Positions 2,156 to 62,968 of a stretch of DNA of 64,000 nucleotides are shown piece after piece. The notes beneath the pieces are model-generated. The model made no database searches, was not told the DNA's origin, and saw only the letters and a list, made by a program, of their open reading frames with translations. The number at the start of each line of letters is the position of its first letter. The first letter of the stretch is position 1. Source of the stretch: a virus; IMG/VR virus record IMGVR_UViG_3300006925_000008, positions 1 through 64,000 of that record; one strand, written 5' to 3'. The position numbers were made by a program, and so were the translations under genes.

Positions 2156-3799
2156 ATGATGCCCAACGGACAACAGCCGATATTCATAATGCCTGAAGGA
2201 ACAGACCGCACAAGAGGAAAGACGGCACAGGGTAACAATATCGCCGCCGCTAAAGCGGTTGCTGACGCAGTGAAATCAACACTAGGGCCTAAAGGAATGG
2301 ACAAGATGCTAGTCAATGGACTAGGCGATGTCCTCATTACCAATGATGGTGCTACAATCCTGCGTGAAATCAATGTCGAACATCCAGCGGCCAAGATGGT
2401 CATTGAAGTTTCAAAGACTCAAGAAGCACAGTGCTTCGACGGGACTACATCAGCCGTTGTTCTCGCAGGTGCTTTACTCAAGGAGAGCGAAGCACTGATC
2501 GAAAAGAATGTGCATCCGACTGTTATCGCATCAGGATACCGTCTCGCATCGTCTAAAGCATTGGAAACTCTTGAGAAGTGCGTGCTTGACGAAAGACAAC
2601 TGTCCAAGGTCGGTAAAGACCTAGGAGCCATTGCTAAGGTCTGTGCTGAAACAGCATTGACTGGCAAGTTTACTGATACTCACGAAGGAGTCAAGGATGT
2701 CATGTCAGGCATTGCGGGCGATGCCGTCAACAGATTGTCTGACGGGATAAACCCCCCAAACTTAGACGACATCAATGTGATATGTGCAACAGGTGGTTCA
2801 GTTGAAGACTCATACCTGATGGATGGAATTGTCCTAGAGAAGGAAAAGGCTCACAACGGAATGCCAACAGCAGTTGACGGAGCCTCGCTTGCATTGGTTG
2901 ACTTTGCTATTGAAGTTAAGAAAACTGAAGTCGATGCGAGAATCCAAATTACAAGTCCTGATCAAATGCAAGACTTCCTCGACCAAGAAGAAACAGCCCT
3001 GCGAAACATGGTGAAGAAGTTTCAGGATGCCGGAGCAAATGTGGTTCTATGTCAAAAGAAGATTGATGACCTAGCCCTGCATTACATGGCTAAGGCTGGC
3101 ATCATGGCATTACAGTCATGTCGAAAGTCCGAGTTGTCATCAGTCGCAAAGGCGACAGGTGCTGTTGTTATCAGTGACCTTGATGACTTAGTTGATGCTG
3201 ACCTTGGTTCCGCTGGACATGTGATTGAAGAACGAATTGGTGAGAACCTGATGGTTCGTATCGGTGGCGTGTCTGAAGTTGATTCAAGGGCGGTCACAGT
3301 CATCCTGCGTGGTGCAACCACCCATGTCGTTGAAGAGATTGAAAGAGCCTTCGATGATGCGCTTGGAGTAGTGTCTCTAGTCATCAACACCTCACAGATT
3401 GTCGTGGGCGGCGGATGCACATTTGCGGCAATGGCGAAGAACCTGCGTGAATATGCCAGCACTGTTGCTGGTCGAAAGCAGATGGCTATCGAAGCATATG
3501 CCAAGGCACTTGAAGAGATTCCTTCGACCATTGCTGAAAACGCAGGCATGGACCCAGTTGATTCGATCATCGCTTTGAGAGCGGCACACGCTAACAGCGC
3601 ATACACCCACGGAATCCTCGTTACAGATGAGGAGACCGACCTTCTAGTTGACAACCTCCTCCACTATGGAGTGGTTGAACCATTGAGCGTAGTCAAGCAG
3701 GCCTTGATTAGCGCAACTGAAACCTCGACCATGATTCTCCGCATCGATGATGTAATTCAAATGCGTCAAGCGGGGCCTCAAGGCTCACCTATGATGTGA
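2156..3799 (+). CDS. ths: Thermosome subunit (group II chaperonin)
   Basis: [22 protein letters not shown], (F)[25 protein letters not shown]. Confidence 0.97.
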
Positions 3800-23377: not shown

Positions 23378-24739
23378 TCAGCGGCGCATGAAGTTTTCGA
23401 TTATCTCCCGTGGACTAACCACGGCTTGACCCATTGGTGATTGAGACAGGCCATGCTCTTTTTCAGTTGCTAGGATTGCGTCTAAGCCCTCGCCGTAGGG
23501 AATCAGTGAGCGTGTGAAGTATGCAGGTGCGGTGACATTCCTGCCCGCTCTATTCGTAAACGAGATAGGGCCTAATTCATTGATACCCGCTCTTGCGCCC
23601 GGAGGTGCGGCGGCGTAGTATTGATTCCCGTATCGCCCTGTTCTGATCGATTTAGGTTCCTCCCATTGACCCTCGGATTTACCTCTTGGTTTGGACCTCC
23701 AATACTTTCCGTCAGTCAATTGAGGATAATCAGGCTCTCCGCTTAATTCAGGGGCATGACTCAACCGCTCTTTGAAGTCCTTGCTACCTCCCTGTGAGAG
23801 GAGTTGCTTCAACTCATGGGCCTGCAAGTTTCTTTGTTCACCAGCACCCGGCATGTCATTGTAAAGGACATTACTGCCGTATAGGATGTCATTCAACGGG
23901 TCTTTTGCACCTTTCAATCTAGGGCGTGGTGTCCAGTCTTTAGGAAAATGACCAAATAAATCAGTGGGCTTCAATTCGGGGATGCCCCCTCCGCCCACAT
24001 GCATTCTTTGAGGCAACAGTGGAGAGAAGTCAGTGATACCGAATAATTCAGATGAAGCGGGGTCTTGATACGAAGCGTGTTGAATGTTTGCCATATCCCA
24101 ATCGCCAAAGGAGGTGGGGTGGTATCTCAACACAGACACCGGGTTCTCGATGAATGCTTTCATATCAGGGTTGTATTCACGAAGGTCCTCCATCAAATCA
24201 AAGGTTCTTTGCATTGTCCTTTGACTGTTTATAGCGGCCTCATTCTTTGGTTCCCAGCCTGCCGCTAAGTCTTCAGGGTATTCCTCGTCGGTCCCTCTTA
24301 GCATATTCAATTCACGCTTTAGGTTCCTCCCTCCGAGTTTCCATTGGTCGGGGGTTTTCCATGTATTACCGATTTGTTGCATTGACCATCCTTCGCACGG
24401 TCCACTAGCAAATAATAAATCGATAGGCCCACCAAAGTCATCAATCATTTGATCAGCCGTGAGGTTGAGAATGTTGACTCGCTTATCGGGAAGGATTCCA
24501 ATTGGTTTTCCTTTATGCTGGTCCCAGTCATATCCAATTACATTATGACCTCTATCACGGGCCGCAGTGGACCATCCAGCGTGGACATTTGGCGTGCCAT
24601 CAGGTCCAACGGACCCGCCAACAGCGGAGAATAAATCGGCAACATTCAGGCGATGATCATGAGATTTCATTAAAGCGGCCTCCAAGAGCATCCACCCTCT
24701 CATTGCCTCCTTATTAGATCGCCTATCCATCAATCTCAC
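23378..24739 (-). CDS. C5 cytosine DNA methyltransferase-like protein with insertions
   Basis: Motif I ADLFSAVGG, motif IV DLLFASGPC, motif VI FIENP, KPTDLFG. Confidence 0.75.
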   Translation of the reverse strand: MRLMDRRSNKEAMRGWMLLEAALMKSHDHRLNVADLFSAVGGSVGPDGTPNVHAGWSTAARDRGHNVIGYDWDQHKGKPIGILPDKRVNILNLTADQMIDDFGGPIDLLFASGPCEGWSMQQIGNTWKTPDQWKLGGRNLKRELNMLRGTDEEYPEDLAAGWEPKNEAAINSQRTMQRTFDLMEDLREYNPDMKAFIENPVSVLRYHPTSFGDWDMANIQHASYQDPASSELFGITDFSPLLPQRMHVGGGGIPELKPTDLFGHFPKDWTPRPRLKGAKDPLNDILYGSNVLYNDMPGAGEQRNLQAHELKQLLSQGGSKDFKERLSHAPELSGEPDYPQLTDGKYWRSKPRGKSEGQWEEPKSIRTGRYGNQYYAAAPPGARAGINELGPISFTNRAGRNVTAPAYFTRSLIPYGEGLDAILATEKEHGLSQSPMGQAVVSPREIIENFMRR

Positions 24740-25014
24740 CGACTTGTTGATGCACGACTGCCGCCAGCACCTAGTTGCCTTCTCATAGCGGGCCTGACAT
24801 TGCCACGACTCTTGTTTCGTTTGTATCGCCTAGCGGTTTTACCACGCTTGTTTTTGCGGCTTACCGTCCATGCTTTGTTCTTAGCCTGACGCACGGGCCT
24901 GTCTGAAATGTTGTTTTTACTGTATCCTTTGAATCGCCCTTTGTCAAGGTCTTTCAAGACAGCGAGTCCGGCTTCAACTGCACGGCTTTCAACCGAGGCC
25001 TCACTCTCCGCCAT
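24736..25014 (-). CDS. Small Arg/Lys-rich protein (candidate virion core/DNA-condensing protein)
   Basis: Acidic leader ending ...AVEAGLAVLK, then a very basic body. Confidence 0.65.
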   Translation of the reverse strand: MAESEASVESRAVEAGLAVLKDLDKGRFKGYSKNNISDRPVRQAKNKAWTVSRKNKRGKTARRYKRNKSRGNVRPAMRRQLGAGGSRASTSR

Positions 25015-42407: not shown

Positions 42408-43667
42408 TCACAGTCCCACAAGTTGCTCAACCGCCGCCATCGAAAGGTCGTAATTCCATACAGAATCACCTGCTGAATATGATGGGTCAAATGAGGTTAC
42501 GATTGCTGGGATAGCAATACCCTGTTGTAAGAAGGGATTTGGCCTGACCGTTTCCCCGTTTACAATGTCAACTGGGTCATACACGGAGGTGTTGGACTCC
42601 GCTGAAAAGTCGGTCCCCGGACCCGCAGGGATTAAGAATTGTCTCAAAACTTGTTGCCCGTTTGGGTCTGAAATGATCGACTCGTAAGGAATCCTGATTC
42701 CTATAATGTATTTTTGAACGGCTTTACTTTCACTTATTCTTAAAAATTGGGCAGTATCAACTGAAGCAATGGAGTCAGGTAAATCGATAAGACTCCCCGT
42801 CAGAACCTGTGGGCTGATGAGCGCACCGCCGGGACTAGGGTTTGAAATCATATTCATCAGGTCTTGCAGTTTGTCTCCTTTTGTCATTTTCAATGCGGCC
42901 ACGCCGCCCGTGAGGTTGGATATGAGGAATGGATTTGGCCAGTCTTGGCCAGCACCGCCAATGGTCGAATCTGACTGTTTGATGACAGTATGATTGCTAT
43001 GTGACCCTGTTTTTACATTTGACAGGGTAATCTTTTCACCTGTCGTGAAATTACCTTCGACGCTGTTCTGTGCGTGATACGAAATAGCATCAGCCTGCCC
43101 TAAACCTTGAGCCACTGTCATTTCAGATGTGAATAAAACCGGAATAGAACCAACATGTATTGATGCGGCATTTAGTGCCAGTCTGATCGCAGTTGCCACG
43201 GTTTCAGTATCGGTGGTCGAAGAGACATCGACATTGATAATCGACTTGTTTGCGATTGTATTAGCCACTGCGCCATTAGTGAAGCGGATAGTAAAGTTTT
43301 CATTGAGTCCGGCGGCTAATTGGCCAGCCGTTGAAGCGACAACCTCTTTTCCAAACAACAAACCTTTTGCATAATTCCACGAGGGGGTCCTAAGTGAACC
43401 AAACCATGTTGACCCAAGTGAGGACCCACCCGACAGGGACAGGTCAAGCATCATAGAAGAACCAACGCCAGCAGAACCGTTTGAATCGTCTGATAGAATG
43501 CCAGTTACTTTGATTATGATGTTTGTTTGATTTAGGTCAAGAGCGGCACGAGTTGCTAAGACAGGTAATGCATGAACAGCAACCATCCTTTGAAAACTGA
43601 ATGCAATCTCCTCGGCTTCTAACTCAATGACACTGCCGTCTCTCCTAATGAGTTGAATCTTGGGCAT
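42408..43667 (-). CDS. Distal tail (Dit-like) protein with insertion
   Basis: Immediately follows the TMP. Conserved-looking termini (ALDLNQ...IKVTGIL; VTSFDPSY.AG..VWNYDL). Confidence 0.5.
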   Translation of the reverse strand: MPKIQLIRRDGSVIELEAEEIAFSFQRMVAVHALPVLATRAALDLNQTNIIIKVTGILSDDSNGSAGVGSSMMLDLSLSGGSSLGSTWFGSLRTPSWNYAKGLLFGKEVVASTAGQLAAGLNENFTIRFTNGAVANTIANKSIINVDVSSTTDTETVATAIRLALNAASIHVGSIPVLFTSEMTVAQGLGQADAISYHAQNSVEGNFTTGEKITLSNVKTGSHSNHTVIKQSDSTIGGAGQDWPNPFLISNLTGGVAALKMTKGDKLQDLMNMISNPSPGGALISPQVLTGSLIDLPDSIASVDTAQFLRISESKAVQKYIIGIRIPYESIISDPNGQQVLRQFLIPAGPGTDFSAESNTSVYDPVDIVNGETVRPNPFLQQGIAIPAIVTSFDPSYSAGDSVWNYDLSMAAVEQLVGL

Positions 43668-45154
43668 TACATTACACCTCTCCCATATCCGCCTGAACGA
43701 GACCTCGTTCTAAATGCTCTTTGAACCTCTTGACTTACTTTGTCGGCTATTTCACGAGCATTGCCCCCGCCACTGACGGAGATGTTGATGTTGTTGGTGT
43801 CACCACCGCCGCCGCCGCCCATACCTTTCACGGTGACTGGGATGCTACTGCCGTCAGGAAGAGGGACAACTGCTTCGGTCCCGTGTAGCGTGGCTAAATA
43901 TCCTGAATCAGGTCCACGGGATACACCGCCCGAATCGAAAAGTCCACCCACAAAGTCTGCCGTTCCACCGATGAATCCGCCAACGCCGTCAACAATTCCC
44001 TCTATCGTATCAACAATAGGGGATAAGAAGTCCATGATGTCATCAACCCATCCTTCGACATAACTCCAAAGTGCATCAAAGGTGTCTATGAATATATCAC
44101 CGAAGCCTACGATCAAGTCCCAAACCTTACCCCAGTCCCCGGTGAAAACCGCTACAATGATTCTGATAATGTTGACTATAACTCTCATTACGAACATGAA
44201 AAGAGCAACTGCAACTTGAAATGCTAACTTGAAACCAAACCACAGGGGCATAAGGAACGGAATGATAAACGCCACGAGATAAACGACAATGGCTATGATA
44301 ACTCCGATTACCCTGACTACAATAGCCGCCACTTCAAAGAGCATCATACCTATTTCAACTATGAAATCAATTATGCCACTGGATATGAGGAAGTCAACAA
44401 AGCCACTAATTGCCCCTGTAATGAATGATGTTACACTTGCGAAGTCAACACCTACATTGTTTAATGCCCCGAATACGATGCCAAAGGCGAACATTACCGC
44501 CTCCATTAAACCACCAATCGCATCAATCATCCCCTGTAAAGCACCAGTATCCGACAGGTGTTGAAATATCATTACAATCGATTCTATTACTGCGGCAACT
44601 ATGGTGGTCCACATGGTATATGCTTGGATAATACCCGCAAATATGACCATCCCTGCGGCCATCAAAGGTTCTATTATGGGCATAAAGTCTAGCCCCATGA
44701 TTATCCCAATCAATTGCCCCACCGAGCCTATTATGCTCATGAAATTATCAATTATCCCCCCTAAAGCGTCTTGAATACCGGGGAGCATATCGCCAAAGCC
44801 GCCCATTCCGCCCCCTAAAAGACCCAACGCCATCATTAAAGCGAGGCCAATACCTATGGCCATAGTGAATGTCATTACAATTTTGGTCATCCCCGAACCC
44901 AACATGCCAATTGTTTTGGTGATCGGTGCGGCGGCTTCGTCCATGGTTTCAAACGCCTCACTGACATCAGCCATGACTTCAGTGGCTGTTGCCATTACCT
45001 GTTTTGACTTAATCCACAGGTCATAGAATGGGCCGAATGCCTTGTTATACATCTTGGTATAAAGAGCGGCGGATTGGACATTCTTAGTGAAACCGCCAAT
45101 AGCAATGCTTGCCGCCGCTATTTCACTTGTTGCCGCCGATGCACCTTCCGCCAT
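43667..45154 (-). CDS. Tape measure protein
   Basis: Amphipathic/hydrophobic helical repeats, FTGDW, C-terminal LHGTEAVVPLPDG. Follows the chaperone genes. Confidence 0.85.
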   Translation of the reverse strand: MAEGASAATSEIAAASIAIGGFTKNVQSAALYTKMYNKAFGPFYDLWIKSKQVMATATEVMADVSEAFETMDEAAAPITKTIGMLGSGMTKIVMTFTMAIGIGLALMMALGLLGGGMGGFGDMLPGIQDALGGIIDNFMSIIGSVGQLIGIIMGLDFMPIIEPLMAAGMVIFAGIIQAYTMWTTIVAAVIESIVMIFQHLSDTGALQGMIDAIGGLMEAVMFAFGIVFGALNNVGVDFASVTSFITGAISGFVDFLISSGIIDFIVEIGMMLFEVAAIVVRVIGVIIAIVVYLVAFIIPFLMPLWFGFKLAFQVAVALFMFVMRVIVNIIRIIVAVFTGDWGKVWDLIVGFGDIFIDTFDALWSYVEGWVDDIMDFLSPIVDTIEGIVDGVGGFIGGTADFVGGLFDSGGVSRGPDSGYLATLHGTEAVVPLPDGSSIPVTVKGMGGGGGGDTNNINISVSGGGNAREIADKVSQEVQRAFRTRSRSGGYGRGVM

Positions 45155-45155
45155 T

Positions 45156-45497
45156 TTATTCCCTCATTTGCTGATTTACTCGCTCAAAGTAGTCCTCGTC
45201 GCTAGTAGTGCGTAGTGGTCGCCCACTTTTATTATTCGCCCCTTTACTCATGTTTTTGTGCATTTTATCCATTTCAGACTTGGTTATATCCTGTGCGGCA
45301 CGCATGAATATAAAATCAAGCATAACGCTCTCATGCGATTGATCGTCCCAAGAATGTGGTGGACATTTGAAATAAGAACCGAGAGCAAAAGTTACGGTCT
45401 TATGAGCCAAAATTGTCTGCTGTGGAGGCGTAAAAGGATTCTTCTCGCCATCAGATGAAATGTAATCTATCAAATCGGAGAAGGTTATACCAAAGGG
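45156..45497 (-). CDS. Tail assembly chaperone frameshift extension (gpT-like)
   Basis: The -1 frame is open from CCCTTTG through ORF 45156..45473. Confidence 0.7.
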   Translation of the reverse strand, partial: PFGITFSDLIDYISSDGEKNPFTPPQQTILAHKTVTFALGSYFKCPPHSWDDQSHESVMLDFIFMRAAQDITKSEMDKMHKNMSKGANNKSGRPLRTTSDEDYFERVNQQMRE

Positions 45498-45853
45498 TCT
45501 GCTTCACCGCCGGATGCAAACTGTTGCATGATGTCCGTCAATGAAGGAAGAACCGCTTGGATGGCGTTGCCAACTTCAGGTTTTAGATTGAATAGGTCTT
45601 GTTTGCTCAATGCTGGTTCTGTTCTGTCAACGCATCGTGCTAACACATAACGCCAGTAACCTCCGAGGTCGATTGAAGGCGATGCCTCACCGTCAATAAC
45701 CTTGAAGTCAACGAATTGAGACATTGCCTCCTGCTGTTCAATCCATGATAGTGGTTTAACATAGACAATCAATGTGCCATCAGGTGTCTCCACCTCATGA
45801 CGATTGGCACTGCGGCTCAATACAAACCGATGATTATTCTGATCCTGTTGCAT
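45485..45853 (-). CDS. Tail assembly chaperone (gpG-like)
   Basis: Between tail tube and TMP. GAGGTGG RBS before ATG 45853. Confidence 0.7.
   Translation of the reverse strand: MQQDQNNHRFVLSRSANRHEVETPDGTLIVYVKPLSWIEQQEAMSQFVDFKVIDGEASPSIDLGGYWRYVLARCVDRTEPALSKQDLFNLKPEVGNAIQAVLPSLTDIMQQFASGGEADPLV
45491..45497 (-). other. -1 ribosomal frameshift slippery heptamer C CCT TTG
   Basis: XXXYYYZ in the correct phase, one codon before the chaperone stop. Confidence 0.75.
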
Positions 45854-46232
45854 CGTCTTCCACCTCTTCAACAGTTTCTTCAGCCGGGGCTTCAGCCGGG
45901 GCTTCTGTCGAGTTTCCTTCTGTTTCAGCACTTTCGTAACGCTCAATCAAATCCTTTTTGTTGCCATAAATAGGCAATCCCTTCTCCTTCAGCATAAGGC
46001 GAAGGTCGGTAACAGTCAAATCCCAAAGTCCTCCGGTTGGGTTTTCGACTACATTGGCTTCAGCCATTACCGATGTTCCGGTTGAGTTTGTATAATCAGG
46101 CAATGACACATGGACCTTTACCTCATCGGCACTTAGTCCGGGGCCAGCATTCACTGATGTCCCTGTAATTGTCCAGTCAAGGGGCGTTCTTACCCCGTTT
46201 AATGTCACGAATCCTGATAGTCGCATAGCCAT
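45834..46232 (-). CDS. SAP-domain protein
   Basis: LWDLTVTDLRLMLKEKGLPIYGNKKDLIERY. Confidence 0.7.
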   Translation of the reverse strand: MAMRLSGFVTLNGVRTPLDWTITGTSVNAGPGLSADEVKVHVSLPDYTNSTGTSVMAEANVVENPTGGLWDLTVTDLRLMLKEKGLPIYGNKKDLIERYESAETEGNSTEAPAEAPAEETVEEVEDDATGSE

Positions 46233-46266: not shown

Positions 46267-46680
46267 TTATTGAAATCTAGGATGGCCTTCAAACTTCATC
46301 TGATCGGCAATTGCTTGTAATTCCTTTAGCCGTCGCTGGCTTTCTTCATGACTTTTGACTCTCCCTTGTATTCTTTCGGTTGCCGCTGTTTCAGGCATAT
46401 TGCCCAGTGATTCTAAAGGAAAATCGGGGTCGCCTACATTAGCGGCCACAGTCCCTTGCATGTTGGCCGCATTAGACATGTAATCCTCCGCCCAGCCTTC
46501 AGGGTCTCCTTTGTAAGGGGCGGGTATAGGGCTTTGCGAGACCGCCTGTGCGGTTTCTTGACCTCCAAGCATCTGAAGTTGTTGCATGTCCTGCTCATAA
46601 TCCCCCTTCAAGAATTGACTCCATGCGGAGTCCAATGCCTGCTTGTGAATCATGGCTTCTGTTTTTGGCATTTTACTCAC
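46267..46680 (-). CDS. Putative virion-internal protein with MPKTExMIHKQALDSAWS leader
   Basis: Shares an 18-aa leader with the adjacent gene. The rest is unrelated. Confidence 0.65.
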   Translation of the reverse strand: MSKMPKTEAMIHKQALDSAWSQFLKGDYEQDMQQLQMLGGQETAQAVSQSPIPAPYKGDPEGWAEDYMSNAANMQGTVAANVGDPDFPLESLGNMPETAATERIQGRVKSHEESQRRLKELQAIADQMKFEGHPRFQ

Positions 46681-47317
46681 CTGAATAGGTCAGTTGTCGG
46701 TTGCGGGGCGGGGGGAGTTGTCCTTGTGGCTGTGGCCTCTCTAACTCCATTCCCTTATCAGCAAAACGGTCATAGAACATGGGATGAATCTCATCCGCTC
46801 GTTGTCCGGGGTTTACCAGCCATTCAGGGATGCCCTCCATGGGTGACTCTCCCGTTCCTTCTGTTCTAATACTGCTCTCTCCTTCTGCGTGTTCAGGGTT
46901 CTTCACCGTGTCTTTAGTTGAAACACGCATTTCACTGTTTTTGTCAGGTAAGGCATAACCCTGCTTCCTGTCATAATTCGGATGAGACGGGTCTAAAGCA
47001 CCTCTTTCGTAGTGTTCGGGTCGGGGGGCCATTACTTCTGAATCTCCGGGCCTTCTTTTTCTCCGGTCATATAGGTCGGGGTTTCCTGATGTAGCACTTA
47101 GCATATTTGCTCTTTCGTCCCTCAAGTTGCTCCTCACTTTTCGCTCATATTCCGTCACTACTGGCTGATCAATTTGGTCATCAAGATGTTCTAAATCTCG
47201 CCTCAAATTATCAGCGTGCGCTTGATGACCATGCGGTGCATATGAGCCGTAAAACTTCATCAGACTCCATGCGGAATCTAGGGCTTGCTTGTGAATCATG
47301 TCTTCTGTTTTAGGCAT
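46617..47317 (-). repeat. 55-bp imperfect direct repeat (46617-46671 and 47263-47317)
   Basis: 48/55 identical. 6 of the 7 differences leave the peptide unchanged. Confidence 0.9.
46673..47317 (-). CDS. Putative virion-internal protein with MPKTExMIHKQALDSAWS leader
   Basis: Start placed at ATG 47317 by the repeat. Hydrophilic, probably disordered body. Confidence 0.65.
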   Translation of the reverse strand: MPKTEDMIHKQALDSAWSLMKFYGSYAPHGHQAHADNLRRDLEHLDDQIDQPVVTEYERKVRSNLRDERANMLSATSGNPDLYDRRKRRPGDSEVMAPRPEHYERGALDPSHPNYDRKQGYALPDKNSEMRVSTKDTVKNPEHAEGESSIRTEGTGESPMEGIPEWLVNPGQRADEIHPMFYDRFADKGMELERPQPQGQLPPPRNRQLTYSGE

Positions 47318-47327
47318 AATAATCAAC

Positions 47328-49775
47328 TCATAGGGTATAATATGGATTAGTTTCTTCAATCTTCAAGTGTCGGACAATGCATTCAACTTCAGCGGTGACT
47401 GGTCCCTTGTCATCAGGCATTGGATGATTTGCTTTGACGATGGTGTAGTCTTCAAGCGTGATTACTGTGCTTTGTCTTGTAGCCGCTGAACCTGTCTTGT
47501 TCATTCTGAACACGATGTCGTTTGAATTAGTGTGATGCTTTCTAGTCCTCATTTCAGTCCAATAGCGGTCATCCTCGACAATGGCCGAGAAGTTAAACTT
47601 GTATTCTCTCATTGCTTCTGTGATGTCAAGTGCCTGATGTGTTCCGCCGTGTTGAACCTGATCACCGTCAAGCGTTTGACCTTCAAATCCACGAACATAC
47701 CAGCGAGCGGAATTGTTGTTGGCGAGACTAAACTCAAATTGAGTCCCACGGAGGACAGGTGTGCCAAATGCTTCAACGCTCAAGTCTTGGAATAGGTATG
47801 GCTTTTCACCATCAACTGCAACACCTGAAACCAATCGGTTGACAAAAGTGTTCGCTGTATTTTCAAACATACGGTGTGGGACAAACTTGTTGACAGTATC
47901 CGTGTAGTGGCGTGTTGCCTCATACTCCATTGTCAGTTTGCATTCTCCTTCACTATCAGCCGCTAGTTTAGCGGATTGCACTTTGCATCCATTGAAGAGT
48001 CGTAGCATTTGTTCACGGCCCGGAGTTGCGTTTGTTTGTCTAAAAGACTGTTCGATCATAAATGTCGGAACATGAGTATGCCCGAATAATGTGTGAGATA
48101 CACCATGGGCCAAAGCACCACCAGTGCCAATCATTGGGGTCCCTCTTCGACCATCCTTGACAGTCAAAGCACCAGCCGTTGAATGCACATAGCCCATTCT
48201 TTCAATGCCACATGATGCGGCGATGTGGTCAAGTAGCCATGGTTCTTCGATATACAACTCGGTGTTTGCATTGTTCTTGCCGATAATCCTGCGGATTTCA
48301 TTCTTGAACACAGTTGGCAGTGTTGAGTCAGCACCCGGAATAGAATGGGTGTCTTTGTCGTAAATCTGAATATAGTCGCCAGCGGAGTATTTCGCACCTA
48401 GGGTCGCACTAACCTTGACAAACACATCGCCTGAAGCAATGCTCGCAGTTGGCGAACCAAGAAGTTGGACCGGGACATCGACAAGTTTGACTCGTGCTTG
48501 CACACCCGCATCGATGTCGGCAACGGTCTTGTGAGCCGGTGCATCAACAAGGACTGAAGTGGATGCCGCAAATGAAGCGGAACCAGCACCGCTAGTGACA
48601 GTGATTGTCACTGTTGGATAGGAGGTATATCCGCTACCCGGTTCAGTGATTACGATTGCGTCTAATGTTCCTGTCGCAGTGACAGTCCCAGTGGCTTGAA
48701 CGCCCCCTGTGAGGTCGGGCGCACCGAAGACTACATCAGCGGAGTTTATCACTCCTGCTTGAGTTACATCGCCCATAGCAGGCACGCCAACCGCTGAAAT
48801 GCCAGCGGCGAATGAACCGATCAAGACTTTACCGTCAGTGCCAAGAGTTTTGATAATTCCGGCAGTTGGAACCGTAGCATGGGAAGTAGCAAAAGAGCCG
48901 ACACCCATTACATTCCCGGTGTCCGTAGCAATAGTCCTAGCACCAAGGAGAATGGTCTGACCATCAGCACCACCAGTGAGGCTGGCGAGACCAGCCGCCC
49001 CTAGTGTCGTTAGGTCTGTGACATTCACTTTATTGGTTGACCCATATGCTTGAACCGCCCAAATGTCAGTTGCACTGTCTTTGAGGTTCAATGGATTCTC
49101 GGTTAATATGGTTGCACCTGAAAGACTGTTAATGCTAGACAATTCGCCATCGCTCTTTGAAACACAGCCGCCAAGTGCATATTTCATCCACTTCAAGGTG
49201 TGTGCGTTTGACTCCATGCTCCCACCGGCCAGTGTTTCACGGCCACTGGTCAATACATTGACATCTCGACCCATGCCAATGACATGTTGCTTTCTGACAT
49301 CAATTTCAGGTTCAGGCAATCCAAATGTGTTTAGCAATCCAATGAAACCATCGCTCTTTACTTGAGACGATGAATCCGTGCTTGCCGCATCAATGGTTGG
49401 ACAGCCAATGCTGTCAAGAGTAAAAATATCTGACGCTTTTGCATTGCCCGTAGTAGCCATTGCAGGTTGAACATTGATCGTGTTAGTTGAACAGTCATTT
49501 GCAGTGATGTAATAGGTGCGGCGTGTTGCTGAATAGTCATCAGACGAATAGACATCTCCACCCGCTACACGAAGGATACAACCCACGAGAACATTGTCAG
49601 GAACCGCATTATGGAACCATGCATTGCTACCGTATGTAATCACGGAGGTATTTGGCAATGTAGCGTGTGCCGCCACTGCCCAACCATCCGCACTGTCGTC
49701 GCCTTCTAGTCTCAATCCTGTTTCTTTGCCCCAAGATACTTCTGCTAAGTCGCCCTTGAATACTGTGTTTACCAT
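47328..49775 (-). CDS. Major tail (tube) protein with large internal insertion
   Basis: N-terminal KGDLAEVSWGKET and C-terminal TFMIEQS...FNGCKVQSAKL. Lies after the terminator. GAGGTGA RBS. Confidence 0.7.
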   Translation of the reverse strand: MVNTVFKGDLAEVSWGKETGLRLEGDDSADGWAVAAHATLPNTSVITYGSNAWFHNAVPDNVLVGCILRVAGGDVYSSDDYSATRRTYYITANDCSTNTINVQPAMATTGNAKASDIFTLDSIGCPTIDAASTDSSSQVKSDGFIGLLNTFGLPEPEIDVRKQHVIGMGRDVNVLTSGRETLAGGSMESNAHTLKWMKYALGGCVSKSDGELSSINSLSGATILTENPLNLKDSATDIWAVQAYGSTNKVNVTDLTTLGAAGLASLTGGADGQTILLGARTIATDTGNVMGVGSFATSHATVPTAGIIKTLGTDGKVLIGSFAAGISAVGVPAMGDVTQAGVINSADVVFGAPDLTGGVQATGTVTATGTLDAIVITEPGSGYTSYPTVTITVTSGAGSASFAASTSVLVDAPAHKTVADIDAGVQARVKLVDVPVQLLGSPTASIASGDVFVKVSATLGAKYSAGDYIQIYDKDTHSIPGADSTLPTVFKNEIRRIIGKNNANTELYIEEPWLLDHIAASCGIERMGYVHSTAGALTVKDGRRGTPMIGTGGALAHGVSHTLFGHTHVPTFMIEQSFRQTNATPGREQMLRLFNGCKVQSAKLAADSEGECKLTMEYEATRHYTDTVNKFVPHRMFENTANTFVNRLVSGVAVDGEKPYLFQDLSVEAFGTPVLRGTQFEFSLANNNSARWYVRGFEGQTLDGDQVQHGGTHQALDITEAMREYKFNFSAIVEDDRYWTEMRTRKHHTNSNDIVFRMNKTGSAATRQSTVITLEDYTIVKANHPMPDDKGPVTAEVECIVRHLKIEETNPYYTL

Positions 49776-52148: not shown

Positions 52149-52700
52149 TCAATAATCGTCTCCGATTTCAAGATGTCTTACTTTTCCGCCTTGTCTGCGT
52201 TGTTGTTTTCCGGCATGTCTCGACTCGGCTCTCCGGCGTGAACATGTTGAAGGGACTTCACCAGCGGCACATTGGTCAGGGGAGTCCGTTGACATAGCAC
52301 CGCACCCTCTTACTGAACATGGCTGTGCTTTGATCAGGGACCAACCGCAGTCACCCGCTTCTTGAATTGCTTTAGCGAGTTTAGCCTTCTTTGGGTAACA
52401 GTTTTCACATGCATTGCCGTCAGTGTCCGTCCCGTCCGAGCAATTCATACAATTCATATTCTTGTATGCCTTTTCATCACTCTTAGCAACTTTCTTGTTG
52501 CCATCCTCATCCATGTCCAATATATTGACGGCATTAGGTGAAGAATCCGTGACCTGCTTAGGAACGCCACACTTTTGGTTACATTCGCTTTTCTGTGCTG
52601 GTGTGCATTCAGAATAATTGCAGTTGAAATGTTTCTGACAGTATGCGTTCTTTTCATCCATGTCGGCTCTCGCCTTCAAAATTAACTCATTTAGATTCAT
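52149..52700 (-). CDS. Cys-rich segmented protein with internal AGDCGWSLIK motif
   Basis: Three Cys clusters separated by ILKA, VAKS, LAKA and LIKA. Confidence 0.65.
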   Translation of the reverse strand: MNLNELILKARADMDEKNAYCQKHFNCNYSECTPAQKSECNQKCGVPKQVTDSSPNAVNILDMDEDGNKKVAKSDEKAYKNMNCMNCSDGTDTDGNACENCYPKKAKLAKAIQEAGDCGWSLIKAQPCSVRGCGAMSTDSPDQCAAGEVPSTCSRRRAESRHAGKQQRRQGGKVRHLEIGDDY

Positions 52701-54951: not shown

Positions 54952-56121
54952 TCAAGCACTTAGGTCCCTCACCTTGCCGTGTGCGCCATAGAACAGTTGC
55001 CATAGGTTGCCCATCGTGTGGAACATTCCCATTTGACCTAGACGGTTGATACCGAATGGGTCTCCTGTCTCAATGCCTGATTCGTGATAGAGAGTTGGTT
55101 TTGCAGTGCAGAAGTAGGTGTAATCAGTATCCATGTAGTATAGACGGCTGATTCCTGCTCCTCCTTCGTTGTGAACATCCTTAGAAGGAATAAGAGGCAC
55201 ACCGTTGTATGTAGCAACGATAAACCCTGCCTCCATACCCGGAACACCTTTCACGCCGTTGACACCCGGAACAACTTTCTTCATTTCAGTGAAGCGTTGT
55301 TGAGGTTGTAGCAACTGTTGAATCTTCTCAAGAGTATCGTATCCAGTCATGATGACCTTTGGTTGTCCACCACGCTCCCAAATGTTGCGGAACATGCCAT
55401 CGAGGATGTTCAGTGTAAGTGGGCGTTCATCACCATTGGTTCCCGCATCAACATTTGCATCAGACCATTCTTGCGTTGCCGCTTCAGGTCGGCTGATGTT
55501 GTATTGGTCGTGGTCGCCTGCCGATACATCGCCAAAGGTTGAAGCCTTCTCGATCTTAGCGGATGAAGTAATACGGTCAATAGAGTCAAAGTCATTCAAT
55601 GTGGTGCTACGGTAGGAAATATCCTTTAGAAGCATTTTGTTGATGGTTTCAGCGTGGTGCTTGGCCATCTCCATTTTCATGACAGCACGAGCATCACCAA
55701 GACCGTCATCCTTGTCAGCAAGGAACATTGCGGTTTCAGTGAGGTCAAAGGTGTGAGCCACTGTGCGTGGTTTGTCATTGACATGCAAGAAAGTTGGTTT
55801 GCTTGTTTCAGGCAGTGTTGCGTTTTCAGGAACGCCGCCACCCTTGCTAGAATCAGGCTTGCCAGTGACGACTCGCCATCCACTCTTTTCCCATGGTTTC
55901 TTTGGCATGATTGAAAATGCGTTAAACTCTTGGTTCAACTGTGACCAAACCTTACGGCCAAAAATAGCCTGATAGGTTCCGCTTGTAGTGGACATCAATG
56001 GAGAGTCAGCCTTCAATAGGTCTGTTCCGCTGTATGCCCATGCGTTGTTTCCTGCTCCTGCACCGTAATACAGTCGCTCCATGTCTTCAATTGTTCGTAG
56101 GTATCCTCGTGATCCGCTCAT
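54952..56121 (-). CDS. Major capsid protein (HK97 fold)
   Basis: Follows the protease. KPWEKSGWRV, GGVPENATLP, GGQPKVIMTG, ATYNGVPLIPSKD. Confidence 0.9.
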   Translation of the reverse strand: MSGSRGYLRTIEDMERLYYGAGAGNNAWAYSGTDLLKADSPLMSTTSGTYQAIFGRKVWSQLNQEFNAFSIMPKKPWEKSGWRVVTGKPDSSKGGGVPENATLPETSKPTFLHVNDKPRTVAHTFDLTETAMFLADKDDGLGDARAVMKMEMAKHHAETINKMLLKDISYRSTTLNDFDSIDRITSSAKIEKASTFGDVSAGDHDQYNISRPEAATQEWSDANVDAGTNGDERPLTLNILDGMFRNIWERGGQPKVIMTGYDTLEKIQQLLQPQQRFTEMKKVVPGVNGVKGVPGMEAGFIVATYNGVPLIPSKDVHNEGGAGISRLYYMDTDYTYFCTAKPTLYHESGIETGDPFGINRLGQMGMFHTMGNLWQLFYGAHGKVRDLSA

Positions 56122-56161: not shown

Positions 56162-57490
56162 TTATTCTCCTCTCAAGGCCCTCCGTGCCAAGTCTTCAGC
56201 CGCAAGCCATCCATCGACACCATTGCCCATTGCGTTAAACTCGTCATGGGTTGGCACACGAACAGATGTTGTTGCAGGTTCAGCAACGACGGACTTCTGC
56301 AAGTCAGTGTTTTCTTGCTTCAATGAGGCAATCTCATTTCGCAGGGAGTTGATTTGTCCACCAAAGTCATTTTGCTTTTGGATGGCCAATGCATTTTCCG
56401 TTTCAGCATTGTAACGGTCTTTCCACTCTTTTTCAACAAGGGATTTGACTGCTTCTTCATCACGAATGGATGCGTAAGCGTGGTATCCTCGTTCAAGGGA
56501 TTGAGGTGAAAGGTTCAAGCCGCCTTTGATAACCTGCTTGTTACCTGAAGGTGCATTCATCTTCATCGAGCCAGTTTGCTTGATGACATTCTGATTGCCG
56601 CTTGCTGATGGCAAACTTGGGTAAGATGGTTCAGAAGCGGATTCTCCACTTCCTTCAGCATCTCCTTGACCACGGTGACTGTATCCGCCACTGCCTTCTT
56701 GGAGGTAAGCCTTCTCAAGACCGAAGTGGTTACGGAGGGAATCAAGGTTGACTCCACTCTCGTGAGCAAACTTCTCAAGCGTATCGATGTATGCAATTGC
56801 ACTACTATCGGCATGTTGATCAGTCTTAACAACTGGTTCATTTGCTGGTTCTTCGTCTTCAATGTGCTTTAACACACGGCTTAGGCTGTCTCGTATTTCG
56901 CTCAATGCTTCATTACTCATTTCTTGTTCACTTCCTGTATTGTCCATTTTAAGGATTGTATATCGGGCTTCCGGGTTGATGCCCTTTTTGCACAAGGTAA
57001 TCTCGTGCAATTCTAAATCGGTAATCTCCCTGTGTGTCCCATGTTCAGGGGTGGTTTTGGTTACACGGAATAACGCTTGACCACCGATAGAGAATGCTTT
57101 GAGGTCGCCACTGCGAACCTGCTTTTGGACTTCACGAGCCTTTTGGATGTCGTCACGGACACGGCATACGACAAAGAGTCCATGCTCGTCCACTTCTGAT
57201 TTCCAAACTCGTCCTTCCGAATCTGTATAATTGTCAACTACTTCACCGACTTGAATGCCGCTATGTGCTAGTTGAACATTTCTGAATGCCTTGTTACCCA
57301 TAAACTTCGTGAATGCCTTTGACAATGCAGATGCTGGGATTCGATCACCCTGCTTGTCAACCATGTCCACACTTGCATATCCCGCAATGTATAGGTCACT
57401 ACCTTCTGACGCTTTCAGAATAAAATCGCTTCCAACAGCCGAGAACCCTGCGGTTCTGACAGTAGGATTAGCCATTATACTGGTCGCCAT
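56162..57490 (-). CDS. HK97-type prohead protease fused to scaffold-like C-terminus
   Basis: IAGYASVDMVDKQGD, QLAHS (His), AFSIGG (Ser), LHEITLC..GINPEA. C-terminal coiled coil. Confidence 0.9.
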   Translation of the reverse strand: MATSIMANPTVRTAGFSAVGSDFILKASEGSDLYIAGYASVDMVDKQGDRIPASALSKAFTKFMGNKAFRNVQLAHSGIQVGEVVDNYTDSEGRVWKSEVDEHGLFVVCRVRDDIQKAREVQKQVRSGDLKAFSIGGQALFRVTKTTPEHGTHREITDLELHEITLCKKGINPEARYTILKMDNTGSEQEMSNEALSEIRDSLSRVLKHIEDEEPANEPVVKTDQHADSSAIAYIDTLEKFAHESGVNLDSLRNHFGLEKAYLQEGSGGYSHRGQGDAEGSGESASEPSYPSLPSASGNQNVIKQTGSMKMNAPSGNKQVIKGGLNLSPQSLERGYHAYASIRDEEAVKSLVEKEWKDRYNAETENALAIQKQNDFGGQINSLRNEIASLKQENTDLQKSVVAEPATTSVRVPTHDEFNAMGNGVDGWLAAEDLARRALRGE

Positions 57491-61273: not shown

Positions 61274-61729
61274 TCACAGGCGGTTCTCAATTTGTTTGAG
61301 CAATGCCTCTATTTCATTGATGACTTGAATATCTCCGGCATCAGCGTTTTTCTTGATCATTGTCAACTTAGACATTTTATCCTCAACAGAATCTCGATAC
61401 ATCCCTTTGGTGGTTCCGCCATCATTCATGTGCATGTGCAATGATGAGCCTTTTACATCGTATCCGGTTTGATATGATGCGGGCATTGAATATACCTCGC
61501 TAATTGGTTTTGATGCCGGTGCTGAATCTGAAAAATGTGGGTAAACTTGGTTGGTTGTATAACCCGCCGCCGCTTGAACGGGAACGCCACCAGCGTGGTC
61601 CATAAAAGTAGGAACAGCATTATCGCCGGTTGGGTCCTGCTGATATTTCAAAAGGTCTAACTCCATGGTTAGGATGTCTTTCAATAAACTGCCTTCGGGG
61701 GTATTGGAGGGGTCGTGCCATTCAATCAT
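61274..61729 (-). CDS. Hypothetical head-module protein
   Basis: ATG 61729 overlaps the upstream stop. GGTGA RBS. Confidence 0.6.
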   Translation of the reverse strand: MIEWHDPSNTPEGSLLKDILTMELDLLKYQQDPTGDNAVPTFMDHAGGVPVQAAAGYTTNQVYPHFSDSAPASKPISEVYSMPASYQTGYDVKGSSLHMHMNDGGTTKGMYRDSVEDKMSKLTMIKKNADAGDIQVINEIEALLKQIENRL

Positions 61730-62064
61730 TGTCGCATCACCGTCTGTTCTGCTTGCTTCCACTCTTCTAATTCATCGTGTCTCGATTGCTTTTGAAAAGT
61801 GTCCCCAGTCCCATTAAATGGTCCTGAAAAGGATTGAGAATTGTCAGATACATCCCTTTGTAGGGGGTCGTAGGCCTCATCAGCCATTGGAGTTATTACT
61901 TTCAACCACCCTGCTTTCTTCATCATGGTTTCAGGGTCATCGAGAGATTTGGTTAGCATGGTGTTCTGTGTTTCTAATGAGACCACACGCTGGCGCAATT
62001 CCTTGATTTCAGTGACCATCTCTTTCATCAGGTCGATCTTGGCTTGCTCCTGTTCGTCACTCAT
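61726..62064 (-). CDS. Coiled-coil head-module protein
   Basis: Heptad pattern LMKEMVTEIKELRQRVVSLE. Confidence 0.65.
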   Translation of the reverse strand: MSDEQEQAKIDLMKEMVTEIKELRQRVVSLETQNTMLTKSLDDPETMMKKAGWLKVITPMADEAYDPLQRDVSDNSQSFSGPFNGTGDTFQKQSRHDELEEWKQAEQTVMRQ

Positions 62065-62070
62065 TTCAAA

Positions 62071-62592
62071 TCACATCGCTTGAGAGGGGTTCATAGTTGC
62101 CGCATCTTGTGGTGGCATTGGTTGAGGCATATTCATTGGGTCTTGTTGCATTGATGCCGCCGCCATTGGGTCATTTACAGGTGGTCCGTGTTGACCTAGT
62201 GATGCGTGCATCTCCTTTATCATGGCTAAATCCTGCAATAGGCTCAATTGCTTTTGCCTCATTTTTTCAACATCACCCTGCATTGCTAAAGTGGGTTCAG
62301 GGGCAATGCCTGTTGCTCGACTTTGTGAAAGTAATTGTCCAACACTAGCAAACATGTCAGCGAGGCCTTGAATGCCCGAATCCATTTCATCAAGCATACT
62401 TCCTATTGCCGATTTAGGAGGTGCGGGTGGCATACCCATTCCCGGCATACCCGCTTCCATTCCCGGCATTTGACCGGCTGGTGAAGGCATTGGAGGCATC
62501 ATAGCCTGCTTGATGATCAAGCCGTTGTATGCTTCGCCTTCATGACGGAATCTAGGAGATACCGCTTTACTGTTGCCTTCATCCCAATACAT
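62071..62592 (-). CDS. Met/Pro/Gln-rich head-module protein
   Basis: Low-complexity termini flank a helical core. Confidence 0.6.
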   Translation of the reverse strand: MYWDEGNSKAVSPRFRHEGEAYNGLIIKQAMMPPMPSPAGQMPGMEAGMPGMGMPPAPPKSAIGSMLDEMDSGIQGLADMFASVGQLLSQSRATGIAPEPTLAMQGDVEKMRQKQLSLLQDLAMIKEMHASLGQHGPPVNDPMAAASMQQDPMNMPQPMPPQDAATMNPSQAM

Positions 62593-62602
62593 TCTAAACG
62601 CC

Positions 62603-62968
62603 TCAAAATACTCGGTGTGGTCGCATTATTGTTGTTGAGCGGCCTTTGCGTGAAACACCAGTCACTTGTTGGTCTTGGGTTCCATCGTAATCTGAATCTG
62701 TTGCTTTGAATTGGTATAGATTGCCAGCCGACTTTTGAAGTTGGCTAGAATCTGTTGCCGAGGTAAAGGATTTGGCGAGTCGGTCATGTAGGTCGAGGTC
62801 AGATTTCAATTGCGAAAGTGCGTTTTGAGCCGCCTCTAAATGCTTGGCAATATCATCACGATTGTTGTGCTGTATTGCTGTTTGCATTGCTTCTAGTTGC
62901 GCTTGCGCTCGACGGGCCATAGGGTCCATCTTCGTAATAATTCCAAAATCTCCAATCGTTTCGCTCAT
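62603..62968 (-). CDS. Helical head-module protein
   Basis: GGAGTGG RBS before ATG 62968. Confidence 0.6.
   Translation of the reverse strand: MSETIGDFGIITKMDPMARRAQAQLEAMQTAIQHNNRDDIAKHLEAAQNALSQLKSDLDLHDRLAKSFTSATDSSQLQKSAGNLYQFKATDSDYDGTQDQQVTGVSRKGRSTTIMRPHRVF

What the first reader, a model, noticed from the sequence alone, without database searches (positions are those of the whole stretch)
46267..47317. Portable N-terminal tag on unrelated late proteins: candidate capsid-targeting/cargo-loading system
Seen: two adjacent genes between the tail tube and chaperone genes start MPKTE[A/D]MIHKQALDSAWS and then reach a Lys (LMK; QFLK), with unrelated bodies after it. Their 55-bp leaders differ at 7 sites and 6 are silent, which points to selection on the peptide. 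The same pattern recurs in other late genes: EAGDCGWSLIK (52149..52700), RAVEAGLAVLK (24736..25014) and, more loosely, EAMRGWMLLEAALMK (methyltransferase 23378..24739). Known analogy: T4 internal proteins carry a short capsid-targeting sequence that the prohead protease removes, and HK97 protease cuts after Lys. Inference: this amphipathic helix ending in Lys is a modular address tag that loads diverse proteins into the head for injection into the archaeal host.
Basis: partly seen in the sequence, partly recalled or inferred. Interest (0 to 1): 0.85.

Follow-up and report, generated by a model that had tools for sequence, protein, structure and literature searches.

The report
Shared address tag on magrovirus proteins
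Two small genes in the tail region of this ocean archaeal virus start with a lengthened copy of a 12-residue peptide that this virus group puts in front of well over a hundred unrelated proteins; it is most likely a label for loading proteins into the virus particle, but no experiment has tested that.

Summary
Genes A (46267-46671, minus strand) and B (46673-47317, minus strand) share 17 of their first 18 residues. Their 54-55 nt leaders differ at 7 sites, 6 of them silent, and the bodies are unrelated.

The leader is a lengthened local form of a much larger tag, M-x-A-F-D-x-A-W-x-h-h-K (h = hydrophobic). Distant relatives of both A and B start with the short form. At least 14 more genes at 82-97 kb of the same 97-kb genome carry it. 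At least 119 IMG/VR stretches hold it, on 287 proteins in 163 unrelated body groups. Cellular genomes almost lack it: the only clear case is a virus-sized contig in a Poseidoniales single-cell assembly. The halovirus HVTV-1 lacks it.

The methyltransferase example has no support.

Capsid loading and cutting after Lys remain inference. The support is an S78 head protease in the genome, a conserved LLK|AD site in the capsid protein, and tagged genes placed among the structural genes.

This scan has already reported the tag on other DNA, including the other window of this genome. No paper I could search mentions it.

The parts
47255..47317 (-). Gene B leader, residues 1-21 (MPKTEDMIHKQ + ALDSAWSLMK): an 11-residue extension followed by the tag core ending in Lys21
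   Evidence: It scores 10.8 bits against an independent tag profile. A remote B homologue, P0016, starts MGPFEQAWQILK|FYG, and the two align core to core. AF2 predicts a helix at residues 3-23 and a confidence break at 24-27.
46673..47254 (-). Gene B body (193 aa), charged and mostly predicted disordered after two helices; no known family
   Evidence: No Pfam or PHROG hit. Only 5 close and 3 further relatives exist in the two protein libraries. AF2 mean pLDDT is 55.8.
46606..46671 (-). Gene A leader, residues 1-22 (MPKTEAMIHKQ + ALDSAWSQFLK): a B-type leader joined to A's own ..LK|GDY end, with one extra residue between Trp and Lys
   Evidence: A orthologues at 87% and 59% identity start with the short tags MNAFDRAWQLLK|GDY, MRPIDVAWKLLK|GDY and MRPFDHAWQLLK|GDY.
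46267..46605 (-). Gene A body (112 aa); no known family; low-confidence helical prediction
24952..25014 (-). Leader of the 92-aa protein (residues 1-21, core AVEAGLAVLK): a degenerate tag with the same 11+10 layout as B, Trp replaced by Leu
   Evidence: The orthologue in L050 reads MEAFDRAWEIIR|SDEKGKFRGYSKN where this gene reads ..AVEAGLAVLK|DLDKGRFKGYSKN. Other orthologues carry tag-like leaders. Coordinates.
52329..52358 (-). Internal tag-like stretch AGDCGWSLIK (residues 115-124) in the 183-aa Cys-rich protein just upstream of the 546-aa gene
   Evidence: It scores 2.4-5.2 bits, not significant alone. About 15 relatives carry a canonically tagged small gene at this slot, and MAFFT aligns the stretch to their tags.
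56162..57490 (-). Prohead protease (S78, HK97 type) fused to a scaffold-like C-terminal half; candidate enzyme for cutting after the tag's Lys. It has DFILK|AS before the protease domain and YTILK|MD right after it.
   Evidence: Pfam PF04586 at residues 25-178 and PHROG head maturation protease hits. The N-terminal ..[FW][IL][ILM]K leader is conserved in relatives.
54952..56121 (-). Major capsid protein with a 37-residue N-terminal leader ending DLLK37|A38-D39 (Lys37 codon at 56011-56013)
   Evidence: PHROG and Pfam capsid hits. K-A-D is invariant against the HVTV-1 and HCTV-1 capsid proteins, which carry about 100 extra residues before the same SK|AD. [DE][LI]LK|[AS]D is conserved in 16 magrovirus capsid proteins.
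47328..49775 (-). 815-aa tail-tube-position protein directly upstream of B
   Evidence: Weak similarity to HVTV-1 gp128, the gene preceding that virus's tail chaperones. Relatives L063 and L100 carry a canonically tagged 58-68 aa Cys-rich gene directly downstream of its homologue.
43667..46232 (-). Downstream tail block: SAP-domain protein (45834-46232), two chaperone-position genes (45485-45946 and 45156-45473), tape measure protein (43667-45154)
   Evidence: Pfam SAP hit; PHROG tape measure hits; same gene order in L001 and L007.
62930..62968 (-). Short tag-like leader MSETIGDFGIITK|MDP of the 121-aa protein next to the portal gene
   Evidence: Orthologues read MSDGFDILTK|MNP, MSEGFGIISK|MDP and MSDGFDLLAK|MDP. 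Relatives carry canonically tagged genes in this portal-adjacent slot.
2156..3799 (+). Virus-encoded group II chaperonin (thermosome subunit); candidate alternative receptor for the tag (rival explanation)
   Evidence: Pfam PF00118, E 2.8e-154. All five complete tagged relatives tested also have a chaperonin.

Best explanation
Genes A and B are accessory genes sitting in a recurrent slot of the tail module. Each carries a diverged, N-terminally extended copy of the magrovirus-wide tag M-x-A-F-D-x-A-W-x-h-h-K.

The tag is a short amphipathic helix. Its conserved face (A3, F4, A7, W8, L10, L11, plus D5 and K12) probably docks into a viral assembly partner: the scaffold half of the protease, the inner surface of the HK97-fold shell, or the portal. 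This would load the attached protein into the procapsid. The S78 prohead protease then probably cuts after the terminal Lys, releasing the body inside the head for delivery with the DNA.

Shown here: the tag exists, it is portable across unrelated bodies, selection acts on the peptide, it is specific to this virus group, and it lies among structural genes.

Shown here by comparing relatives: the extended leader arose in family B and was later copied onto A, with the junction at the Ala-Trp core.

Inferred only: docking, packaging, cleavage and injection.
For: Portability:
- At least 14 further tagged genes lie at 82-97 kb of the same genome, with mostly unrelated bodies.
- In 1.05 Mb of these stretches there are 354 tags, and 267 have ATG exactly two codons before Ala-Phe.
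- The 287 unique tagged proteins fall into 163 body clusters, 120 of them singletons. Bodies include NUDIX, a GH-E nuclease and a Dam-type methyltransferase.

Natural swap: the same A body occurs with the short tag or the long leader, and so does the B body.

Selection on the peptide:
- A-versus-B leaders show 5-8 synonymous against 0-3 non-synonymous differences, and they cluster by gene rather than by genome.
- Third codon positions vary across 190 tags.
- The variable positions 2, 6 and 9 fall on one face of a helix. AF2 predicts B residues 3-23 as a helix.

Virus specificity: only 4 stretches match in 596 Gb of cellular genomes. Five of the 7 matches sit on one 106-kb contig of a Poseidoniales single-cell assembly.

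Link to head maturation:
- The genome encodes an S78 protease-scaffold.
- The capsid protein has DLLK|AD at the point where homology to halovirus capsid proteins begins, and those proteins carry a roughly 100-aa N-terminal extension before the same K|AD.
- hhK sites flank the protease domain.
- The residues after the tag's Lys are mostly A, M, E, G or S followed by P or D, like K|AD and K|MD.
- The HK97 S78 protease cuts its capsid protein at K103/S104 (PMC10275583).

Placement: tags share the strand of structural markers 256 to 11. They occupy fixed slots after the portal, before the 546-aa gene, and after the tube-position gene.
Against: - No proteomic, structural or biochemical data exist for any magrovirus. 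Neither packaging nor cleavage is shown.
- The generic hhK motif near N-termini is only mildly enriched on the late strand (29/71 against 6/32, p = 0.04). hhK sites are therefore weak evidence on their own.
- A and B lie in the tail module, not the head module.
- B has Phe after the Lys, which is rare among tags (4 of 354). A has an extra residue between Trp and Lys.
- Some tags are internal (about 11%), so an N-terminal position is not required.
- Some relatives have tagged genes on the strand of the replication genes.
- The nearest cultured relative, HVTV-1, has the same head genes but no tag, so the head machinery does not need the tag.
Confidence: 0.5

Rival explanations
1. The tag is a docking peptide that incorporates proteins into the virion but is not cleaved. 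The attached proteins stay tagged, as with encapsulin cargo-loading peptides. The terminal Lys is part of the binding surface, not a cut site.
For: Everything that supports docking also fits this reading. The residues after the Lys are diverse, including F, Y, Q, N and R. Internal tags exist. The cleavage evidence is only by analogy.
Against: The tag always ends in h-h-K. The same motif sits at the capsid protein's leader/body junction and flanks the protease domain. A confidence break follows the helix in B.
Confidence: 0.15
2. The tag directs client proteins to the virus-encoded chaperonin (thermosome or GroEL) or another folding or assembly hub in the infected cell, not to the capsid.
For: The genome encodes a thermosome subunit. 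All 5 complete tagged relatives tested encode a chaperonin. There is a precedent listed in the references of PMC10052503: Snyder and Tarkowski 2005, whose title states that the T4 head protein N terminus directs proteins to GroEL. I did not read that paper.
Against: Only 12 of 26 magroviruses were reported to encode a chaperonin (PMC5434244). Group II chaperonins are not known to read a specific N-terminal peptide (my own knowledge). Tagged genes sit among structural genes, whereas the chaperonin sits in the replication block.
Confidence: 0.08
3. The tag targets proteins to another site or fate in the host cell: the membrane or a virus factory via the amphipathic helix, export, or timed degradation (a degron). 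This would be unrelated to the virion.
For: The peptide is an amphipathic helix with a broad hydrophobic face. Many bodies look like effectors, such as a nuclease, NUDIX and a methyltransferase. Such proteins could act inside the producing cell.
Against: Asp, Trp and Lys are strictly conserved, which points to a specific protein partner rather than lipid binding. The tag has no hydrophobic stretch of Sec or Tat type. It is absent from host genomes, so no host pathway uses it on the host's own proteins.
Confidence: 0.15
4. The shared leader is mainly a nucleic-acid feature (a translation-start context or a recombination handle for swapping cassettes), and the peptide is incidental.
For: Codon choice in the tag is somewhat biased: GAC is 73% of Asp codons, and GCC before TGG is nearly absent. 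A's leader was replaced by B's, with the junction at the Ala-Trp core. Earlier scan note e1-6062097 proposed this reading.
Against: All synonymous codons are used at the conserved residues. The A and B leaders differ almost only at silent sites. Internal tags are conserved as peptide. A role in recombination could be a side effect but cannot explain conservation of the peptide.
Confidence: 0.04

Closest known systems
Capsid targeting sequence (CTS) of phage T4 internal proteins IPI-III and Alt, removed by the gp21 prohead protease (Mullaney and Black 1996, cited in PMC10052503; reviews PMC3012670, PMC9958956)
   Same: A short N-terminal peptide shared by otherwise unrelated, fast-evolving small proteins and enzymes. 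It is portable. In T4 it loads proteins into the prohead and is clipped off, and the cargo is injected to counter host defence.
   Different: There is no sequence similarity. T4 uses a different protease family and cuts after Glu (my own knowledge). Here the predicted cut is after Lys by an S78 enzyme. Here 16 or more genes per genome and more than 160 body groups carry one highly conserved 12-mer. The virus infects archaea. Function is untested.
Propeptide processing of many head and ejection proteins in giant phages (phiKZ, 201phi2-1, SPN3US gp245; PMC10052503, PMC5694885)
   Same: One prohead protease cleaves many different internal head proteins at a short consensus site, and these proteins are ejected into the host.
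   Different: Those propeptides vary in length and sequence and share only a cut-site consensus. Here a whole helix is conserved upstream of the presumed site.
HK97 capsid maturation: S78 protease gp4 removes the capsid protein's N-terminal scaffold domain at K103/S104 (PMC10275583)
   Same: Same protease family as window 56162-57490. Cleavage after Lys. The capsid protein here has a conserved LLK|AD at the equivalent leader/body junction.
   Different: HK97 is not known to load unrelated cargo by a shared tag. Cleavage here is not demonstrated.
Encapsulin cargo-loading peptides (my own knowledge, not checked here)
   Same: Short conserved peptides on diverse enzymes dock to the inner face of an HK97-fold shell. 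This is a good model for how such a tag could work.
   Different: They are usually C-terminal, are not cleaved, and the shells are non-viral compartments.
Phage P1 Dar system (DarA cleaved by Pro; DarB with a methyltransferase-like domain packaged in the head; PMC12810830, PMC9024508)
   Same: Anti-restriction enzymes packaged into the capsid, some processed by the prohead protease. A Dam-type methyltransferase in this genome sits right behind an internal tag.
   Different: Dar loading is hierarchical, through DarA and Hdf, and no common peptide tag is known.
MuF-domain polymorphic toxins of temperate phages (my own knowledge, not checked here)
   Same: A constant head-associated N-terminal module joined to swappable C-terminal effector domains.
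   Different: The constant part there is a whole domain of several hundred residues, not a 12-residue peptide.

Membership tests
Magrovirus M-x-A-F-D-x-A-W-x-h-h-K tag family (defined in this scan, not in the literature) | Core [FL]-[DE]-x-A-W-x-h-h-K near the N-terminus | tested here: met
   B scores 10.8 bits on an independent profile, above all 20 shuffle maxima. A has the core but with one extra residue before the Lys, and scores 2.8 bits alone.
Magrovirus M-x-A-F-D-x-A-W-x-h-h-K tag family (defined in this scan, not in the literature) | Homologues of the same body carry the canonical short tag | tested here: met
   Family A: P0008, P0009 and P0010. Family B: P0016, aligned core to core.
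Magrovirus M-x-A-F-D-x-A-W-x-h-h-K tag family (defined in this scan, not in the literature) | Bodies behind the tag are unrelated to each other | tested here: met
   A against B: no similarity beyond residue 18. Own-genome set. 163 clusters from 287 proteins.
T4-type capsid targeting sequence | Short N-terminal peptide shared by unrelated phage proteins | tested here: met
T4-type capsid targeting sequence | Tagged proteins are found inside the capsid | not testable with these tools
   No magrovirus is cultured and no virion proteome is on hand. Only gene placement among structural genes is available.
T4-type capsid targeting sequence | Tag removed by the prohead protease at a consensus site | not testable with these tools
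   Indirect only: an S78 protease is present, the capsid protein has LLK|AD, hhK sites flank the protease domain, and HK97 cuts at K103/S104.
T4-type capsid targeting sequence | Tag is sufficient to carry a foreign protein (portability) | tested here: inconclusive
   Natural swaps show that one body works with either leader version and that the tag sits on more than 160 body groups. No transfer experiment has been done.
T4-type capsid targeting sequence | Sequence or protease homology to the T4 system | tested here: not met
   The protease is Pfam S78 (HK97 type), not the T4 gp21 family. The tag resembles the T4 CTS only in length and position.
Sec/Tat-type signal peptide | N-terminal hydrophobic core of about 15 or more residues, or a twin-arginine motif | tested here: not met
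   The tag is 12 residues with charged Asp and Lys and no long hydrophobic run.

The most novel reading that the evidence does not exclude
Magrovirus capsids are programmable protein-delivery vehicles. One 12-residue helix, read by the head assembly machinery in the way encapsulin shells read cargo peptides, loads a fast-changing arsenal of more than 160 effector families. The tag also acts as the junction at which leaders and bodies are exchanged between neighbouring genes, as seen when A acquired B's leader at the Ala-Trp core.
Probability: 0.4. Interest if true: 0.85.

Novelty: new variant of a known kind. Interest (0 to 1): 0.7.

Why it matters
Magroviruses are among the most abundant archaeal viruses of the surface ocean (PMC5434244), and none is cultured.

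- A single, easily recognised tag would mark, from sequence alone, the whole set of proteins that these viruses may carry into Marine Group II archaea. It would turn dozens of 'hypothetical' genes per genome into one testable class.
- It gives sharp experiments: N-terminomics of viral-fraction metaproteomes, and tag-GFP with recombinant capsid protein and protease.
- If it works like the T4 sequence, it would be the first cargo-loading signal known for an archaeal virus and for an HK97-type (S78) protease system.
- The A/B pair adds two points. The tag tolerates an 11-residue N-terminal extension, and leaders are exchanged between neighbouring genes.

Tried and rejected
I could not fetch the contigs of P0005/P0008 or P0010.
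- Pfam and PHROGs give nothing for A or B.
- The INPHARED phage collection has no match to the 815-aa protein.
- Searches for the A and B families in IMG/VR found only one related contig.
- AF2 models of A and B are low confidence (pLDDT 50 and 56). I did not send them to fold search.
- The paper that may report the mature N-terminus of the HVTV-1 capsid protein (Pietila 2013, PMC3592136) is not held. Reviews checked carry no such data.
- Chaperonin co-occurrence did not discriminate: 5 of 5 tagged genomes have one.
- Earlier scan notes on other genomes proposed that the tag resembles the scaffold/protease C-terminal tail. In this genome the tail (..GVDGWLAAEDLARRALRGE) does not match the tag profile.
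- I rejected a purely DNA-level explanation because synonymous sites vary.
- I rejected ongoing gene conversion between A and B because the leaders cluster by gene, not by genome.
- The long leader itself is not widely portable. IHKQALDSAW occurs only in the A/B pairs of five contigs.
- The generic hhK motif near N-termini is only weakly enriched on the late strand (p = 0.04), so I did not use it as evidence.
- The two Glaciecola hits are the N-terminus of a MacB/FtsX permease and are coincidental.

Full report
**1. What is at 46267-47317**

Two adjacent minus-strand genes lie here: B (46673-47317, 214 aa) and A (46267-46671, 134 aa). Both begin MPKTE[D/A]MIHKQALDSAWS. BLASTP gives 17/18 identities in this stretch and nothing significant afterwards. 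The first 54-55 nt differ at 7 positions, one of them non-synonymous. Both ATGs are preceded by a Shine-Dalgarno-like GGTGA/GTTGAT a few bases upstream (upstream sequences). The long leader is therefore probably translated from its first Met.

Upstream is an 815-aa protein weakly similar to the HVTV-1 gene that precedes that virus's tail chaperones. Downstream are a SAP-domain protein, two small chaperone-position genes, and the tape measure protein. Neither A nor B matches any Pfam or PHROG family. AF2 predicts a helix at residues 3-23 of B, a confidence break at 24-27, two more helices, then disorder. The model of A is uninformative.

**2. The leader is a local variant of a much larger tag**

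- Family A members at 87% and 59% identity start MNAFDRAWQLLK|GDY, MRPIDVAWKLLK|GDY and MRPFDHAWQLLK|GDY.
- A remote family B member starts MGPFEQAWQILK|FYG. It aligns core to core with B's LDSAWSLMK|FYG.
- The rest of the virus genome holds at least 14 more minus-strand genes at 82-97 kb that start M-[TS]-A-F-D-x-A-W-x-L-[LVI]-K. The genome is a 97,368-nt record, and the window is its first 64 kb. The bodies are mostly unrelated.
- Among them is a Dam-type methyltransferase domain placed right behind an internal tag.

**3. Spread and specificity**

- These stretches hold 354 tags. In 267 of them ATG lies exactly two codons before Ala-Phe.
- The 287 unique tagged proteins fall into 163 body clusters, 120 of them singletons. 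Only a few have Pfam domains: NUDIX, GP88, DUF6321, DUF7249, a GH-E nuclease and a LIM-like zinc finger.
- Most stretches carry magrovirus marker genes.
- The same pattern occurs in only 4 stretches of 596 Gb of prokaryote genomes. Five of the 7 matches lie on one 106-kb contig of a Poseidoniales single-cell assembly, evidently a virus. The two Glaciecola hits are a permease N-terminus.
- The halovirus HVTV-1 shares the capsid, protease and tail layout but has no tag.
- The held magrovirus papers do not mention such a motif.

**4. How good a match are A and B?**

I built a profile only from tags of other viruses. B scores 10.8 bits, above the best score in each of 20 residue shuffles of the genome (highest 9.7). 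A scores 2.8 bits, because it has one extra residue between Trp and Lys. A's membership therefore rests on its orthologues.

**5. History of the long leader**

- IHKQALDSAW occurs only as A/B pairs, in five contigs across IMG/VR and the JGI metagenomes.
- Leaders cluster by gene, not by genome. A-versus-A comparisons show 0 synonymous differences, B-versus-B show 0-5, and A-versus-B show 5-8 synonymous but only 0-3 non-synonymous differences.
- P0005 (B with the long leader) and P0008 (A with the short tag) are both listed with a longest contig of 46,409 nt. I could not fetch that contig to confirm they sit together.
- The most economical reading is as follows. The extension arose in family B. 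It was later copied onto the neighbouring A, with the junction at the Ala-Trp core: B's ..DSAWS joined to A's own QLLK|GDY, giving the extra residue. Since then the peptide has been under strong purifying selection, without ongoing gene conversion.

**6.

- The 92-aa protein (24736-25014) reads ..AVEAGLAVLK|DLDKGRFKGYSKN. Its L050 orthologue reads MEAFDRAWEIIR|SDEKGKFRGYSKN. The site is thus a degenerate homologue of the tag, with the same 11+10 layout as B.
- AGDCGWSLIK in the 183-aa protein (52149-52700) lies in the slot upstream of the 546-aa gene, where about 15 relatives have a canonically tagged small gene. This is plausible but not significant on its own.
- EAMRGWMLLEAALMK (23378-24730) has no support.

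**7. Slots for tagged genes**

Tagged genes recur at fixed places:
- after the portal;
- before the 546-aa gene;
- in the large array near the HMGL-like and GP88 genes;
- after a replication-block gene;
- directly after the tube-position gene, which matters for this finding. L063 and L100 have 58-68 aa Cys-rich proteins with a canonical tag there.

L007, a closer relative, has an untagged Cys-rich gene at that spot and lacks A and B. A and B are therefore accessory cargo in a recurrent slot, not core tail parts.

**8. Mechanism**

Positions 3, 4, 5, 7, 8, 10, 11 and 12 of the tag are conserved, while positions 2, 6 and 9 vary. On a helical wheel the variable positions fall together on one side. 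This fits an amphipathic helix that buries one face in a protein partner. Synonymous sites vary, so selection acts on the peptide.

The link to head maturation is circumstantial:
- the genome has an S78 (HK97-type) protease fused to a scaffold-like half;
- the capsid protein has a 37-residue leader ending DLLK|AD;
- K-A-D is invariant against halovirus capsid proteins, which carry about 100 extra residues before the same site, and the site is conserved in 16 magrovirus capsid proteins;
- h-h-K sites flank the protease domain;
- residues after the tag's Lys are mostly A, M, E, G or S followed by P or D;
- HK97 itself is cut at K103/S104.

Against over-reading this: a bare h-h-K near N-termini is only mildly enriched on the late strand (p = 0.04). 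B has Phe after the Lys, which is rare. Nothing shows packaging or cutting.

**9. Rivals and verdict**

The rivals are docking without cleavage, targeting to the viral chaperonin, another cellular destination, and a nucleic-acid role. I put virion loading with cleavage at about 0.5 and loading without cleavage at about 0.15.

This scan has reported the same tag before, in the other window of this genome and in other magrovirus genomes. My tests agree with those notes.

Noticed in passing
L024, L053, L055, L062, L063, L083, L085, L087, L089, L099 (tagged genes upstream of homologues of the 546-aa gene): Many of these small tagged proteins end in GGQ, EGQ or GGR. The DNA shows why: GGAGG/GGGGG lies 5-8 nt before a TAATG or TAG-ATG stop/start junction. 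The shared C-terminus is therefore an embedded ribosome-binding site for the next gene, not a second peptide motif.
   Followed up: yes
L132 and L134 (CACGHY010000002.1, 106,262 nt, Poseidoniales single-cell assembly AG-422-I20): A virus-sized contig carrying five canonical tags and an HMGL-like gene sits in a single-cell genome of a Poseidoniales archaeon. This is a direct virus-host link for this magrovirus group.
   Followed up: partly
window 45834-46232 (minus strand): A 132-aa protein with a SAP domain (Pfam E 2.9e-07) lies between the A/B pair and the tail chaperone-position genes. It is conserved in L001 and L007. A SAP DNA-binding motif in a tail module is unusual.
   Followed up: no
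G000 89913-90749 (minus strand; L009:9913-10749) and protein P0010: Two tagged units are fused in one reading frame. The first has a decayed tag (MTDFDTAWRKG), and a full tag follows internally at residue 141. P0010 shows the same arrangement for an A relative. This suggests either polyprotein-like products or adjacent genes that have lost the stop between them.
   Followed up: partly
window 2156-3799 (+): A virus-encoded group II chaperonin (thermosome subunit, Pfam E 2.8e-154). This is as reported for group A magroviruses in PMC5434244.
   Followed up: partly
window 61274-62968 (minus strand): The small head-module proteins next to the portal have short conserved leaders ending in h-h-K (MSETIGDFGIITK|MDP; ..GSLLK|D; ..IDLMK|E). 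Orthologues keep them. The first looks like a shortened tag.
   Followed up: partly
L007 8254-8487 (+): In a relative whose 815-aa protein is 55% identical, the A/B slot holds a single untagged 77-aa Cys-rich (zinc-finger-like) gene. More distant relatives (L063, L100) have tagged Cys-rich genes there.
   Followed up: partly
L131 and L133 (Glaciecola genomes): A bacterial MacB/FtsX-type permease starts M[IM]AFDLAWRLFK. This matches the tag pattern by coincidence and is the only cellular match outside the Poseidoniales virus contig.
   Followed up: yes
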